From assembly GCF_048403405.1 (NCBI RefSeq), contig NZ_CP183129.1: a stretch of 64,000 bases of DNA, one strand, 5' to 3'. Positions 3,934 to 6,984 of the stretch are shown piece after piece (position 1 is the stretch's first letter; each line of letters starts with the position of its first letter). The DNA comes from Escherichia coli. GTDB taxonomy: Bacteria > Pseudomonadota > Gammaproteobacteria > Enterobacterales > Enterobacteriaceae. The notes beneath the pieces are model-generated. The model had not been told where the DNA came from. It searched no databases and worked only from the letters and a program-made list of their open reading frames with translations. The translations under genes and the position numbers were made by a program.

Positions 3934-6900
3934 ATGCAGGTCAGCAGAAGGCAGTTCTTTAAGATCTGCGCTGGCGGTATGGCAGGCACCACGGCAGCGG
4001 CACTGGGTTTTGCACCCAGCGTAGCACTCGCGGAAACCCGGCAGTATAAACTGCTGCGCACCCGCGAAACCCGTAATACCTGCACCTATTGTTCCGTAGG
4101 CTGTGGGCTGTTGATGTACAGCCTCGGTGACGGAGCAAAAAACGCCAAAGCATCTATCTTCCATATCGAAGGCGATCCGGATCACCCGGTCAACCGCGGT
4201 GCACTTTGTCCGAAAGGCGCTGGCCTGGTGGATTTCATCCACTCCGAAAGCCGTCTGAAGTTTCCGGAATACCGTGCGCCAGGTTCTGATAAATGGCAGC
4301 AAATCAGTTGGGAAGAGGCGTTTGATCGCATCGCCAAACTGATGAAAGAAGACCGCGATGCTAACTACATTGCGCAAAACGCCGAAGGCGTGACCGTTAA
4401 CCGCTGGCTCTCCACCGGGATGCTGTGTGCTTCCGCGTCGAGTAACGAAACCGGCTATTTAACGCAAAAATTCTCCCGCGCGCTGGGTATGCTCGCGGTC
4501 GACAACCAGGCGCGTGTCTGACACGGACCAACGGTAGCAAGTCTTGCTCCAACATTTGGTCGCGGTGCGATGACCAACCACTGGGTCGACATCAAGAACG
4601 CCAACCTCGTCGTGGTGATGGGCGGTAACGCCGCTGAAGCTCACCCGGTCGGGTTCCGCTGGGCGATGGAAGCCAAAATTCACAACGGCGCGAAGCTGAT
4701 TGTGATCGATCCTCGCTTTACGCGTACGGCGGCGGTGGCTGACTACTATGCCCCTATTCGTTCCGGTACTGACATTGCTTTCCTGTCAGGCGTATTGCTG
4801 TACCTGCTGAACAATGAAAAATTCAACCGCGAATACACCGAAGCCTATACCAACGCCAGCCTGATCGTGCGTGAGGATTACGGCTTTGAAGATGGCCTGT
4901 TCACCGGCTATGACGCGGAAAAACGCAAGTACGATAAATCCTCCTGGACTTACGAACTGGACGAAAACGGCTTCGCCAAACGCGATACCACGCTGCAACA
5001 TCCGCGCTGCGTGTGGAACTTGCTGAAACAGCACGTTTCCCGCTACACGCCAGATGTGGTTGAAAACATCTGCGGTACGCCAAAAGACGCGTTCCTGAAA
5101 GTCTGCGAATACATCGCCGAAACCAGTGCTCACGATAAAACAGCGTCGTTCCTCTACGCCCTCGGCTGGACGCAACACTCCATTGGTGCGCAAAACATTC
5201 GTACGATGGCGATGATCCAGCTGCTGCTCGGCAATATGGGGATGGCTGGCGGCGGCGTTAACGCCCTGCGCGGTCACTCCAATATTCAGGGGCTGACCGA
5301 CCTGGGGCTGCTGTCGCAGAGCCTGCCAGGTTACATGACGCTGCCAAGCGAGAAGCAGACCGATCTGCAAACCTACCTTGCCGCCAACACGCCGAAACCG
5401 CTGCTGGAAGGCCAGGTTAACTACTGGGGCAATTACCCGAAATTCTTCGTCTCCATGATGAAGGCCTTCTTTGGTGATAAAGCGACGGCAGAAAACAGCT
5501 GGGGCTTTGACTGGTTGCCGAAGTGGGATAAAGGCTACGACGTCCTGCAATACTTCGAGATGATGAAAGAGGGCAAAGTCAATGGCTATATCTGCCAGGG
5601 CTTTAACCCGGTTGCCTCATTCCCGAACAAAAACAAAGTGATCGGCTGTCTGTCGAAACTGAAGTTCCTCGTGACCATCGACCCGCTGAACACTGAAACC
5701 TCTAACTTCTGGCAGAACCACGGTGAACTGAACGAAGTTGACTCGTCGAAGATCCAGACCGAAGTGTTCCGTCTGCCATCGACCTGCTTCGCGGAAGAGA
5801 ACGGTTCAATCGTCAACTCTGGTCGCTGGTTGCAGTGGCACTGGAAAGGTGCGGACGCCCCGGGGATTGCGCTGACTGACGGCGAGATCCTCTCCGGTAT
5901 CTTCCTGCGCTTGCGCAAGATGTATGCCGAACAGGGTGGCGCGAACCCGGACCAGGTGCTGAACATGACCTGGAACTACGCCATTCCGCATGAGCCATCT
6001 TCAGAAGAAGTGGCGATGGAGAGTAACGGTAAGGCGCTGGCCGATATTACCGATCCGGCAACCGGTGCGGTTATCGTCAAGAAAGGCCAACAACTTAGCT
6101 CGTTCGCCCAACTGCGCGATGACGGTACAACCTCCTGTGGCTGCTGGATTTTCGCCGGTAGCTGGACGCCAGAGGGCAACCAGATGGCACGCCGTGATAA
6201 CGCCGATCCGTCTGGCCTCGGTAACACGCTGGGCTGGGCATGGGCATGGCCGCTTAACCGCCGTATTCTGTATAACCGCGCCTCCGCAGATCCGCAGGGT
6301 AACCCGTGGGATCCGAAGCGTCAGTTGCTGAAATGGGACGGCACTAAGTGGACCGGCTGGGATATTCCGGACTACAGCGCAGCACCTCCGGGTAGCGGCG
6401 TCGGGCCGTTTATCATGCAGCAGGAAGGCATGGGGCGTCTGTTTGCCCTCGATAAGATGGCGGAAGGTCCGTTCCCGGAACACTACGAGCCGTTTGAAAC
6501 GCCGCTGGGAACTAACCCGCTGCATCCAAACGTTATCTCGAACCCGGCTGCACGTATCTTTAAAGACGACGCCGAAGCATTGGGTAAAGCCGATAAGTTC
6601 CCGTATGTCGGAACCACCTATCGTCTGACCGAGCACTTCCACTACTGGACCAAACACGCGCTGTTGAACGCGATTTTGCAACCAGAGCAGTTTGTGGAAA
6701 TCGGTGAGTCGCTGGCGAATAAACTTGGCATTGCCCAGGGCGATACAGTGAAAGTCTCCTCCAACCGTGGCTATATCAAAGCCAAAGCGGTGGTGACCAA
6801 ACGTATTCGCACGCTGAAAGCGAACGGCAAAGATATCGATACCATCGGTATTCCGATTCACTGGGGCTATGAAGGTGTTGCGAAAAAAGGCTTTATTGCC

Positions 6901-6984
6901 AACACGTTAACGCCATTCGTCGGTGATGCGAACACGCAGACGCCGGAGTTTAAGTCCTTCCTTGTGAATGTGGAAAAGGTGTAA
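3934..6984 (+). CDS. fdoG: Formate dehydrogenase-O major (alpha) subunit, selenoprotein; in-frame UGA at 4519-4521 decoded as selenocysteine
   Basis: Two adjacent same-frame ORFs (3934-4521 and 4570-6984) separated only by TGA; twin-arginine signal RRQFFKICAGGMAGTTAAALGFAPSVALA at N-terminus; molybdopterin oxidoreductase sequence; total 1016 aa. Confidence 0.9.
4519..4575 (+). promoter_or_regulatory. Selenocysteine UGA plus downstream SECIS-like stem-loop in fdoG mRNA
   Basis: TGA followed immediately by a region able to form a hairpin (ggtagcaagtcttgctcc); established bacterial Sec recoding context for fdnG/fdoG/fdhF. Confidence 0.55.

What the first reader, a model, noticed from the sequence alone, without database searches (positions are those of the whole stretch)
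3934..6984. In-frame UGA selenocysteine recoding in fdoG
The ORF track splits fdoG into 3934-4521 and 4570-6984 in the same frame, separated by a single TGA, with a hairpin-forming sequence immediately 3'. This is the expected Sec codon of formate dehydrogenase-O, not a pseudogene; automated annotation would mis-call it as two genes.
Basis: established knowledge. Interest (0 to 1): 0.25.

Follow-up and report, generated by a model that had tools for sequence, protein, structure and literature searches.

The report
Selenocysteine UGA codon in E. coli fdoG
The apparent stop codon that splits this gene is the well-known selenocysteine codon of the E. coli formate dehydrogenase-O catalytic subunit, followed by its RNA hairpin signal; it is real but ordinary textbook biology.

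Summary
Window 3934-6984 (+) is one 1016-codon frame with a single internal stop, TGA at 4519-4521 (codon 196).

The gene is E. coli fdoG:
- It is 98.5% nt identical to K-12 b3894, with two amino-acid differences.
- It lies in the fdhD / fdoG-fdoH-fdoI-fdhE locus.

The TGA is a selenocysteine codon:
- It aligns with Sec196 of the solved FdnG structure (1KQF), with identical flanks.
- It is followed by a SECIS element. Rfam SECIS_3 scores 84.3 bits against a gathering score of 63.
- The SelB-binding mini-hairpin (4533-4550) starts 11 nt after UGA and has the bulged U and the G-U loop.
- In 79 distinct TGA-bearing homologues, the upper stem is 96.9% paired and 4 of 7 pairs show compensatory changes, mostly at synonymous sites.
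- Five Cys-codon (TGY) homologues lack the stem.

The 130 nt around the TGA are at least 99% identical in 5424 E. coli records. selAB is present in 5425 of 5426 genomes.

Both fragments exist as separately called proteins in public databases, but RefSeq/PGAP annotates one CDS, which it misnames fdnG.

Verdict: already known, correct interpretation, low interest.

The parts
3934..6984 (+). fdoG, catalytic (alpha) subunit of formate dehydrogenase-O. One CDS of 1016 codons with UGA196 read as selenocysteine.
   Evidence: Single internal stop. TIGR01553 1572.7 bits against a cut-off of 814.2. 1KQF_A FdnG 1902 bits, aligned end to end. 98.5% nt identity and 2 aa differences to K-12 fdoG b3894. RefSeq annotates one CDS at these coordinates.
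4519..4521 (+). TGA, the selenocysteine codon (Sec196), in the context UGA-C.
   Evidence: Aligned with X196 (Sec) of 1KQF_A. TGA at the same column in fdnG, and at codon 140 in fdhF. TGA in 115 of 120 homologous loci from other species and TGY (Cys) in the other 5. The 130 nt around it are >=99% identical in 5424 E. coli records.
4516..4574 (+). SECIS element (full match to Rfam SECIS_3, RF01989).
   Evidence: 84.3 bits, GA 63, E 1.4e-19, model positions 1-59 of 59.
4533..4550 (+). Upper stem-loop GGUAGCAAGUCUUGCUCC, the presumed SelB-binding mini-hairpin. Bulged U at 4535; apical loop G4541-U4542-C4543. It starts 11 nt after the UGA.
   Evidence: Folds as ((.(((((...))))))) at -4.5 kcal/mol, z = -2.06. 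96.9% of cells paired in 79 distinct sequences, 4 of 7 pairs with changes on both sides, 0 of 500 shuffles reach this value, slid controls 30-63%. Columns 20 (U) and 27 (U) invariant, column 26 (G) >=90%. Spacing and critical bases match the description of the minimal fdhF SECIS in PMC8659212.
4522..4564 (+). Whole hairpin including the lower stem (4522-4531 with 4556-4564).
   Evidence: Lower helix in the Rfam register is 84% paired across species, with no double changes. The window has A.C and A.G mismatches there. The ViennaRNA MFE uses a register shifted by one or two bases. The lower stem is therefore weakly supported.
3943..3963 (+). Twin-arginine (Tat) export motif SRRQFFK, residues 4-10.
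   Evidence: Regular-expression match in the translation. Identical in FdnG 1KQF_A.
4081..4104 (+). CxxCxxxC motif (CTYCSVGC, residues 50-57), ligands of the [4Fe-4S] cluster.
   Evidence: Motif found. Identical in 1KQF_A. The role of the motif rests on established knowledge of the FdnG structure.
3922..3927 (+). Shine-Dalgarno AAGGAG, 6 nt upstream of the fdoG ATG.
   Evidence: Read directly from the sequence. No comparable site precedes the internal ATG at 4570.
6997..7899 (+). fdoH, iron-sulfur beta subunit.
   Evidence: TIGR01582 478.7 bits against a cut-off of 334.7. RefSeq annotation.
7896..8531 (+). fdoI, cytochrome b556 gamma subunit.
   Evidence: NF007924 453.3 bits (cut-off 341), against 243.6 for the FdnI model NF007558.
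8528..9457 (+). fdhE, formate dehydrogenase accessory protein.
   Evidence: NF002925 604.1 bits.
2907..3740 (-). fdhD, sulfurtransferase and chaperone for the bis-MGD cofactor, transcribed divergently.
   Evidence: TIGR00129 340.5 bits. Role as described in PMC6239281.

Best explanation
This is the E. coli fdoG gene. It encodes the Tat-exported, molybdenum-bis-MGD catalytic subunit of the membrane-bound formate dehydrogenase-O (FdoGHI). Codon 196 is UGA and is recoded as selenocysteine, which becomes the Se ligand of molybdenum in the active site. The proposed mechanism is as follows. When the ribosome reaches UGA196, the mRNA just downstream forms the SECIS hairpin. Its apical 18-nt stem-loop (4533-4550; bulged U4535, loop G4541/U4542) starts 11 nt after the UGA and is bound by domain IV of the specialised elongation factor SelB. 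SelB-GTP delivers Sec-tRNA(Sec) (selC, charged through SerRS, SelA and SelD) to the A site in competition with release factor 2. Translation then continues to the TAA at 6982-6984, giving one 1016-residue polypeptide. Shown here: the single in-frame TGA; the identity of the gene; the alignment of the TGA with the structural Sec196 of FdnG; and the presence, position and evolutionary conservation of the hairpin. Inferred from established knowledge: SelB binding, actual Sec insertion, and the catalytic role.
For: One internal stop in 1016 codons.
FdnG 1KQF_A aligns over residues 1-1015 at 1902 bits, with X196 opposite the TGA and identical flanks.
fdnG and fdhF of K-12 carry TGA at the homologous position.
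SECIS_3 scores 84.3 bits against GA 63.
The upper stem is 96.9% paired with compensatory changes in 4 of 7 pairs. No shuffle out of 500 reaches this value, and slid controls give 30-63%.
The two most covarying pairs, columns 21/33 and 24/30, join third codon positions.
The middle codon of the loop is xGU in all but the two Desulfovibrio-type sequences, although the residue there varies between Ser and Gly.
The five Cys-codon homologues keep only 2-5 of the 7 upper-stem pairs.
fdoG and fdnG are 75% nt identical overall. They share a 71-nt exact match starting at the Val codon before the TGA, and 19 of 19 synonymous-capable codons in codons 195-215 are identical against a 59% gene-wide rate (binomial P about 5e-5).
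The 130 nt around the TGA are >=99% identical in 5424 E. coli records. Two sampled single-base variants do not touch the TGA.
selAB is present in 5425 of 5426 E. coli genomes.
Literature: all three E. coli FDHs coordinate bis-MGD with a selenocysteine ligand (PMC6239281). The minimal SECIS is a 17-nt stem-loop 11 nt from UGA with critical U17, G23 and U24 (PMC8659212).
Against: Nothing contradicts it. The weak points are these:
The folding energy of 4519-4575 is not better than that of shuffled sequence (z = -0.22).
The lower stem has two non-canonical pairs in the Rfam register and no compensatory changes.
Only five Cys-type sequences serve as the negative contrast.
The sel genes and tRNA-Sec are not in the window.
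No experiment was or could be run here.
Confidence: 0.97

Rival explanations
1. fdoG is a pseudogene inactivated by a nonsense mutation at codon 196.
For: A naive ORF scan shows a premature stop and two fragments. Many database entries hold the fragments as separate proteins.
Against: The TGA region is >=99% identical in 5424 E. coli records. The TGA is at the same column in 115 loci from Proteobacteria, Acidobacteria, Actinomycetota and Chloroflexi. The downstream 820 codons are fully open and 77% identical to FdnG. The stop coincides with the Sec of the solved structure.
Confidence: 0.005
2. There are two genuinely separate genes: a 195-aa Tat-signal/Fe-S protein and an 804-aa molybdopterin protein, initiated independently at ATG 4570.
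For: Both ORFs exist, and gene callers report them separately.
Against: The 16 codons between the TGA and ATG 4570 encode a peptide identical to FdnG. No Shine-Dalgarno sequence precedes ATG 4570. The homologous FdnG is one chain of 1015 residues in the crystal structure. RefSeq annotates a single CDS.
Confidence: 0.005
3. The UGA is read through by a near-cognate standard tRNA (Trp or Cys), or termination there is the main and functional outcome, and selenocysteine is not specifically inserted.
For: UGA followed by C is regarded as a weak termination context (my own knowledge, not tested here). Some truncated product from competition with RF2 is expected. Cys-codon homologues exist, so Cys at this site is compatible with the fold.
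Against: A dedicated SECIS with the SelB-contact bases is conserved and covaries in TGA-bearing homologues but is absent from the five Cys-codon homologues sampled. selAB is retained in 5425 of 5426 genomes. The literature describes Sec as the Mo ligand of FdoG (PMC6239281).
Confidence: 0.02

Closest known systems
E. coli K-12 fdoG (b3894), formate dehydrogenase-O alpha subunit, Sec196
   Same: Same gene. Identical length (3051 nt) and 98.5% nt identity. TGA at codon 196. No nucleotide differences between window positions 4400 and 4700. Same neighbours fdhD, fdoH, fdoI and fdhE.
   Different: 47 nucleotide differences and two amino-acid differences (I417V, A483T). The flanking strain-specific content differs: yiiG is a pseudogene, yiiF is absent, and a transposase lies downstream.
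E. coli fdnG (b1474), formate dehydrogenase-N alpha subunit; structure 1KQF
   Same: Paralogue, 77% aa and 75% nt identical. Sec at residue 196. The SECIS region is identical: a 71-nt exact match at 4516-4586. Tat motif and CxxCxxxC motif are shared.
   Different: Different locus (yddG-fdnGHI) and different beta and gamma partners. The window's gamma subunit matches the FdoI model far better than the FdnI model. The regulation of fdn (nitrate- and anaerobiosis-induced) as opposed to fdo (expressed aerobically) rests on established knowledge and was not tested.
E. coli fdhF SECIS (Rfam SECIS_2-type), the experimentally dissected bacterial SECIS
   Same: UGAC followed by CACGG. The upper stem-loop starts 11 nt after UGA. 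It has a bulged U on the 5' side and G-U-C in the apical loop. The peptide context is ARV-U-HGP.
   Different: The stem sequences and the 3' half differ. The window scores only 28.1 bits on SECIS_2 (GA 70) but 84.3 on SECIS_3. The host protein is the cytoplasmic 715-aa FDH-H and not a Tat-exported 1016-aa subunit.

Membership tests
Bacterial SelB-dependent SECIS (Rfam SECIS_3, RF01989) | In-frame UGA within an otherwise uninterrupted reading frame | tested here: met
   One internal stop in 1016 codons; the other frames hold 40 and 58 stops.
Bacterial SelB-dependent SECIS (Rfam SECIS_3, RF01989) | Covariance-model score at or above the curated gathering score | tested here: met
   84.3 bits against 63, full-length match to model positions 1-59.
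Bacterial SelB-dependent SECIS (Rfam SECIS_3, RF01989) | Apical stem-loop placed 11 nt 3' of the UGA | tested here: met
   UGA at 4519-4521 and upper stem from 4533, so the spacer 4522-4532 is 11 nt. Rule as stated in PMC8659212.
Bacterial SelB-dependent SECIS (Rfam SECIS_3, RF01989) | Bulged U in the 5' strand and G-U in the apical loop (SelB contact bases) | tested here: met
   U4535 is bulged; the loop is G4541-U4542-C4543. The corresponding alignment columns 20 and 27 are invariant and column 26 is >=90% conserved in 79 distinct sequences.
Bacterial SelB-dependent SECIS (Rfam SECIS_3, RF01989) | Base-pairing maintained by compensatory changes in homologues | tested here: met
   Upper stem: 96.9% paired, 4 of 7 pairs with double changes, 59 cells, 0 of 500 shuffles. 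Lower stem: 84% paired, no double changes, inconclusive.
Bacterial SelB-dependent SECIS (Rfam SECIS_3, RF01989) | Selenocysteine machinery (selA, selB, selC, selD) in the same genome | tested here: inconclusive
   Not in the window: ARAGORN finds only tRNA-Ile and tRNA-Ala. At species level selAB is present in 5425 of 5426 complete E. coli genomes. selC and selD were not checked.
Bacterial SelB-dependent SECIS (Rfam SECIS_3, RF01989) | SelB binding and selenium-dependent read-through | not testable with these tools
   Requires 75Se labelling, gel shifts or reporter fusions.
Formate dehydrogenase alpha subunit, FdnG/FdoG type (NCBIfam TIGR01553; Mo/W-bis-MGD oxidoreductases) | Profile score above the curated equivalog cut-off | tested here: met
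   1572.7 bits against 814.2, covering residues 2-1015.
Formate dehydrogenase alpha subunit, FdnG/FdoG type (NCBIfam TIGR01553; Mo/W-bis-MGD oxidoreductases) | Sec (or Cys) at the Mo-ligand position followed by His (U/C-H-G-P) | tested here: met
   The TGA aligns with X196 of 1KQF_A; flanks ARV-U-HGP. The same motif is found in 120 loci.
Formate dehydrogenase alpha subunit, FdnG/FdoG type (NCBIfam TIGR01553; Mo/W-bis-MGD oxidoreductases) | N-terminal twin-arginine signal and CxxCxxxC [4Fe-4S] motif | tested here: met
   SRRQFFK at residues 4-10; CTYCSVGC at residues 50-57.
Formate dehydrogenase alpha subunit, FdnG/FdoG type (NCBIfam TIGR01553; Mo/W-bis-MGD oxidoreductases) | Operon with Fe-S beta and cytochrome b gamma subunits | tested here: met
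   fdoH matches TIGR01582 and fdoI matches NF007924, immediately downstream with overlapping or adjacent stops and starts.
FDH-O (fdo) as opposed to FDH-N (fdn) | Orthology and synteny with the K-12 fdo locus (fdhD <> fdoGHI-fdhE) | tested here: met
   98.5% nt identity to b3894, against 75% to fdnG. Same neighbours. The FdoI-specific model scores 453 bits against 244 for the FdnI model.
FDH-O (fdo) as opposed to FDH-N (fdn) | Expression in aerobic or nitrate-independent conditions; formate oxidase activity | not testable with these tools
   Requires expression or activity assays.

The most novel reading that the evidence does not exclude
The nucleotide-level constraint around Sec196 may be wider than the known 17-18-nt SelB-binding hairpin. 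fdoG and fdnG share a 71-nt exact match (4516-4586) that runs 22 nt past the 3' end of the hairpin. The same 63 nt are unchanged in Yersinia, Providencia, Photorhabdus, Citrobacter and Enterobacter. The enterobacterial lower stem pairs best in a register shifted from the Rfam consensus. This could reflect an additional functional element, for example an extended or alternative SECIS conformation, a ribosome-pausing or RF2-competition context, or recurrent gene conversion between the paralogues that keeps the two SECIS copies identical.
Probability: 0.15. Interest if true: 0.25.

Novelty: already known. Interest (0 to 1): 0.06.

Why it matters
This matters mainly as a quality-control case. The finding shows that an apparent premature stop in a raw-sequence scan is a programmed recoding site and not a pseudogene. 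The public record is still uneven on it. Thousands of database entries hold the 195-aa and 804-aa fragments as separate proteins, some with wrong names such as 'sulfate ABC transporter substrate-binding protein'. RefSeq calls the fdo-locus gene 'fdnG'. Biologically, Sec196 is the molybdenum ligand of one of the three E. coli formate dehydrogenases, and this has been established for decades. Nothing here changes that understanding.

Tried and rejected
1. Thermodynamic test of the hairpin. The MFE of 4519-4575 is no better than that of shuffles (z = -0.22). Folding energy was therefore rejected as evidence, and I relied on the covariance model and covariation.

2. The lower stem in the Rfam register. 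It has no compensatory changes, and the window carries A.C and A.G mismatches. ViennaRNA prefers a shifted register. This was left unresolved, because the lower stem is reported to have only a modest effect (about 25% lower read-through when unpaired; PMC8659212).

3. Pseudogene and two-gene readings. Both were rejected on conservation and on the structural alignment.

It was repeated with X.

5. PMC139081 (Thanbichler and Bock 2002) is not held. The primary papers on fdo (Plunkett 1993, Sawers 1991, Abaibou 1995, recalled from memory) could not be retrieved. The literature support cited here is therefore from reviews and later papers.

6. The sub-threshold Rfam match FdoG1_thermometer. Only the 3' half aligns, and the fold is not exceptional. 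It is not claimed as a feature.

7. Protein database searches, structure prediction and fold search were not run. Sequence identity to a solved structure made them unnecessary.
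Full report
**Observation**

The ORF list shows 3934-4521 (195 aa) and 4570-6984 (804 aa) on the + strand in the same frame. 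Translating 3934-6984 as one frame gives 1016 codons plus a terminal TAA, with a single internal stop. That stop is TGA at 4519-4521, codon 196. The two alternative forward frames hold 40 and 58 stops.

The second ORF begins at 4570 only because that is the first ATG after the stop. The 16 codons in between encode HGPTVASLAPTFGRGA, which is identical to FdnG. No Shine-Dalgarno sequence precedes ATG 4570, whereas AAGGAG lies 6 nt upstream of ATG 3934.

**Identity of the gene**

Window 3800-9600 is 100% identical to several E. coli chromosomes, and 5424 of 5426 complete genomes hold at least 80% of it. Window 1-13000 is identical to strain 4621.

The joined protein matches the following:
- NCBIfam TIGR01553 at 1572.7 bits (cut-off 814.2).
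- The solved E. coli FdnG structure 1KQF chain A at 1902 bits over residues 1-1015.

The downstream ORFs are:
- The Fe-S beta subunit (TIGR01582).
- A cytochrome b gamma subunit that scores 453 bits on the FdoI model against 244 on the FdnI model.
- FdhE.

fdhD lies divergently upstream.

Against K-12 MG1655, the gene has the same length as fdoG b3894. It is 98.5% nt identical and differs at two residues. It is 75% nt and 77% aa identical to fdnG. The gene is therefore fdoG, in the fdhD / fdoGHI-fdhE locus. The protein carries the twin-arginine motif SRRQFFK (residues 4-10) and the CxxCxxxC motif at residues 50-57.

**The TGA is the selenocysteine codon**

In the alignment to 1KQF_A, the window's TGA column lies opposite residue 196 of FdnG. 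That residue is written X because it is the non-standard selenocysteine. The surrounding NQARV-U-HGPTVASLAPTFGRGAMTNHW is identical. K-12 fdnG has TGA at codon 196, and fdhF has TGA at codon 140 in the context ARV-U-HGP.

A pattern scan of one genome per species used QARV-[TGA/TGC/TGT]-HGP.

Within E. coli, the 130 nt around the codon are at least 99% identical in 5424 records. Two sampled one-mismatch variants change 4524 (a synonymous His codon) and 4488, not the TGA.

**The SECIS element**

Rfam SECIS_3 (RF01989) matches 4516-4574 at 84.3 bits, against a gathering score of 63, with E = 1.4e-19. This was the only cis-regulatory hit above threshold in the 64-kb window.

The structure has two parts:
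- A lower helix, 4522-4531 paired with 4556-4564.
- An upper stem-loop, 4533-4550 (GGUAGCAAGUCUUGCUCC), which on its own folds as ((.(((((...))))))).

The upper stem-loop starts 11 nt after the UGA. It has a bulged U (4535) and G-U-C in the loop (4541-4543). This corresponds to the description of the minimal E. coli SECIS: a 17-nt stem-loop 11 nt from UGA, with U17, G23 and U24 critical for SelB binding (PMC8659212).

Folding energy is not informative here.

The evolutionary evidence is strong. It comes from a gapless alignment of 79 distinct TGA-bearing sequences from Gamma-, Beta-, Alpha- and Deltaproteobacteria, Acidobacteria, Actinomycetota and Chloroflexi:
- The upper stem is paired in 96.9% of cells.
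- 4 of its 7 pairs show changes on both sides (59 cells).
- No shuffle out of 500 reaches the observed value.
- Sliding the partner by 1-3 columns drops pairing to 30-63%.

The two most variable pairs, columns 21/33 and 24/30, both join third codon positions (Val/Ala and Ala/Leu). The compensation A-U to G-C or C-G is therefore made of synonymous changes, and protein-level selection cannot explain it. The loop codon is AGU or GGU (Ser or Gly) in all but the two Desulfovibrio-type sequences (GCU, Ala), so its last two bases stay fixed while the amino acid changes.

The five Cys-codon homologues are from Snodgrassella, two Vogesella, an Orbaceae bacterium and Rivihabitans. They keep only 2-5 of the 7 upper-stem pairs. 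This fits the hairpin being needed only where UGA must be recoded, though five sequences are a small sample.

The lower helix is weaker. It is 84% paired with no double changes, and the window has two non-canonical pairs in the Rfam register. ViennaRNA prefers a slightly shifted register.

**Synonymous constraint within E. coli**

fdoG and fdnG share a 71-nt exact match at 4516-4586, beginning at the Val codon before the TGA. The next longest exact match is 36 nt.

Codons 195-217 form a run of 23 identical codons, and the next longest run is 12. In codons 195-215, all 19 codons that could differ synonymously are identical, against a gene-wide rate of 59% (about 5e-5 by a simple binomial).

**Machinery**

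tRNA-Sec and the sel genes are not in the window. selAB is present in 5425 of 5426 E. coli genomes. selC and selD were not checked.

**Mechanism**

The best-supported explanation is the textbook one. SelB-GTP carrying Sec-tRNA(Sec) binds the apical SECIS hairpin as the ribosome reaches UGA196. It inserts selenocysteine in competition with RF2, and translation continues to give the full 1016-residue Tat-exported subunit. In that subunit, Sec196 ligates the molybdenum of bis-MGD.

The literature retrieved states that all three E. coli FDHs (FdhF, FdnGHI, FdoGHI) coordinate bis-MGD through a selenocysteine ligand and depend on FdhD (PMC6239281). It also describes SelB/SECIS-dependent UGA recoding in general (PMC8124441).

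SelB binding, selenium incorporation and catalysis are inferred here, not shown.

**Annotation claim**

That claim is partly right.
- The exact 804-aa and 195-aa fragments are both on record as separately called proteins, each on at least 1000 contigs. Some are GenBank entries such as ELD43794.1. Some N-terminal fragments carry the wrong name 'sulfate ABC transporter substrate-binding protein'.
- RefSeq/PGAP annotates a single 3051-nt CDS at exactly these coordinates. However, it names it 'fdnG, formate dehydrogenase-N subunit alpha', because the equivalog model TIGR01553 covers both paralogues.

**Rivals**

All three rivals are contradicted by the conservation, the structural alignment and the TGA-specific SECIS:
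- A nonsense pseudogene.
- Two independent genes.
- Read-through or termination without selenocysteine.

Together I give them about 3%.

**Verdict**

It is already known. Interest is low.

The only mildly open point is why nucleotide identity between the paralogues, and across Enterobacterales, extends beyond the hairpin. It could reflect extra RNA-level constraint or gene conversion.

Noticed in passing
window 3934-6984: RefSeq/PGAP names the alpha gene of the fdo locus 'fdnG, formate dehydrogenase-N subunit alpha' in the E. coli records examined. Its neighbours are nevertheless called fdoH and fdoI, and the gene is 98.5% identical to K-12 fdoG. This looks like a systematic naming artefact of the shared equivalog model TIGR01553.
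   Followed up: partly
window 3934-4518 and 4570-6981: Both halves of fdoG are on record as separate proteins on at least 1000 contigs each. Some N-terminal fragments from Cronobacter and Hafnia are named 'sulfate ABC transporter substrate-binding protein'.
   Followed up: yes
window 3765-3963: Sub-threshold Rfam match to FdoG1_thermometer (RF02778): 32 bits against GA 50. Only the 3' half, covering the SD, the AUG and the first codons, aligns well. The MFE of 3880-3965 pairs the SD AAGGAG (3922-3927) with codons 9-11, but z = -0.32. This is not evidence for a thermometer here.
   Followed up: partly
window 4516-4586: The longest exact nucleotide match between E. coli fdoG and fdnG is 71 nt, and the next longest is 36 nt. 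It starts at the codon before the TGA and runs 22 nt past the hairpin. The same 63 nt are unchanged in Yersinia, Providencia, Photorhabdus, Citrobacter and Enterobacter. The cause could be gene conversion or a constraint wider than the minimal SECIS.
   Followed up: partly
L006, L021, L033, L048, L082: FdoG/FdnG-type homologues with Cys (TGT/TGC) in place of Sec occur in Snodgrassella alvi, Vogesella (two species), an Orbaceae bacterium and Rivihabitans. Their upper SECIS stem is degraded to 2-5 of 7 pairs.
   Followed up: partly
window 4522-4531 with 4556-4564: In Enterobacterales the lower SECIS helix has A.C and A.G mismatches in the Rfam register. It folds better in a register shifted by one or two bases. 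Betaproteobacterial sequences, by my own reading of the aligned rows, appear to form a perfect 7-bp helix in the Rfam register.
   Followed up: partly
window 2176-2818 (-), 9672-9890 (-), 10586-11500 (-), 11513-12400 (-): By identity with strain 4621, the window carries a frameshifted and truncated yiiG pseudogene next to fdhD. It also carries yiiE but no yiiF, and a transposase plus a truncated hypothetical gene downstream of fdhE. K-12 has intact yiiG and yiiF and no transposase in this region.
   Followed up: no
window 50234-55337 (-), 39748-40001 (-), 41030-41148 (-), 32863-32970 (-): An rRNA operon (5S, 23S, tRNA-Ala, tRNA-Ile, 16S) and the small RNAs CsrC, Spot 42 and ES222 all score above Rfam gathering thresholds.
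   Followed up: no
L127 (NZ_JBYVFY010000003.1 389702-395827): An fdnGH locus with its usual chromosomal neighbours yddG and yddL sits on a 504-kb circular record labelled 'plasmid pckj3_1_3' in E. coli CKJ_1000_3.1. Seven such matches on plasmid records were counted. It may be a mislabelled chromosomal piece or a chromid.
   Followed up: no
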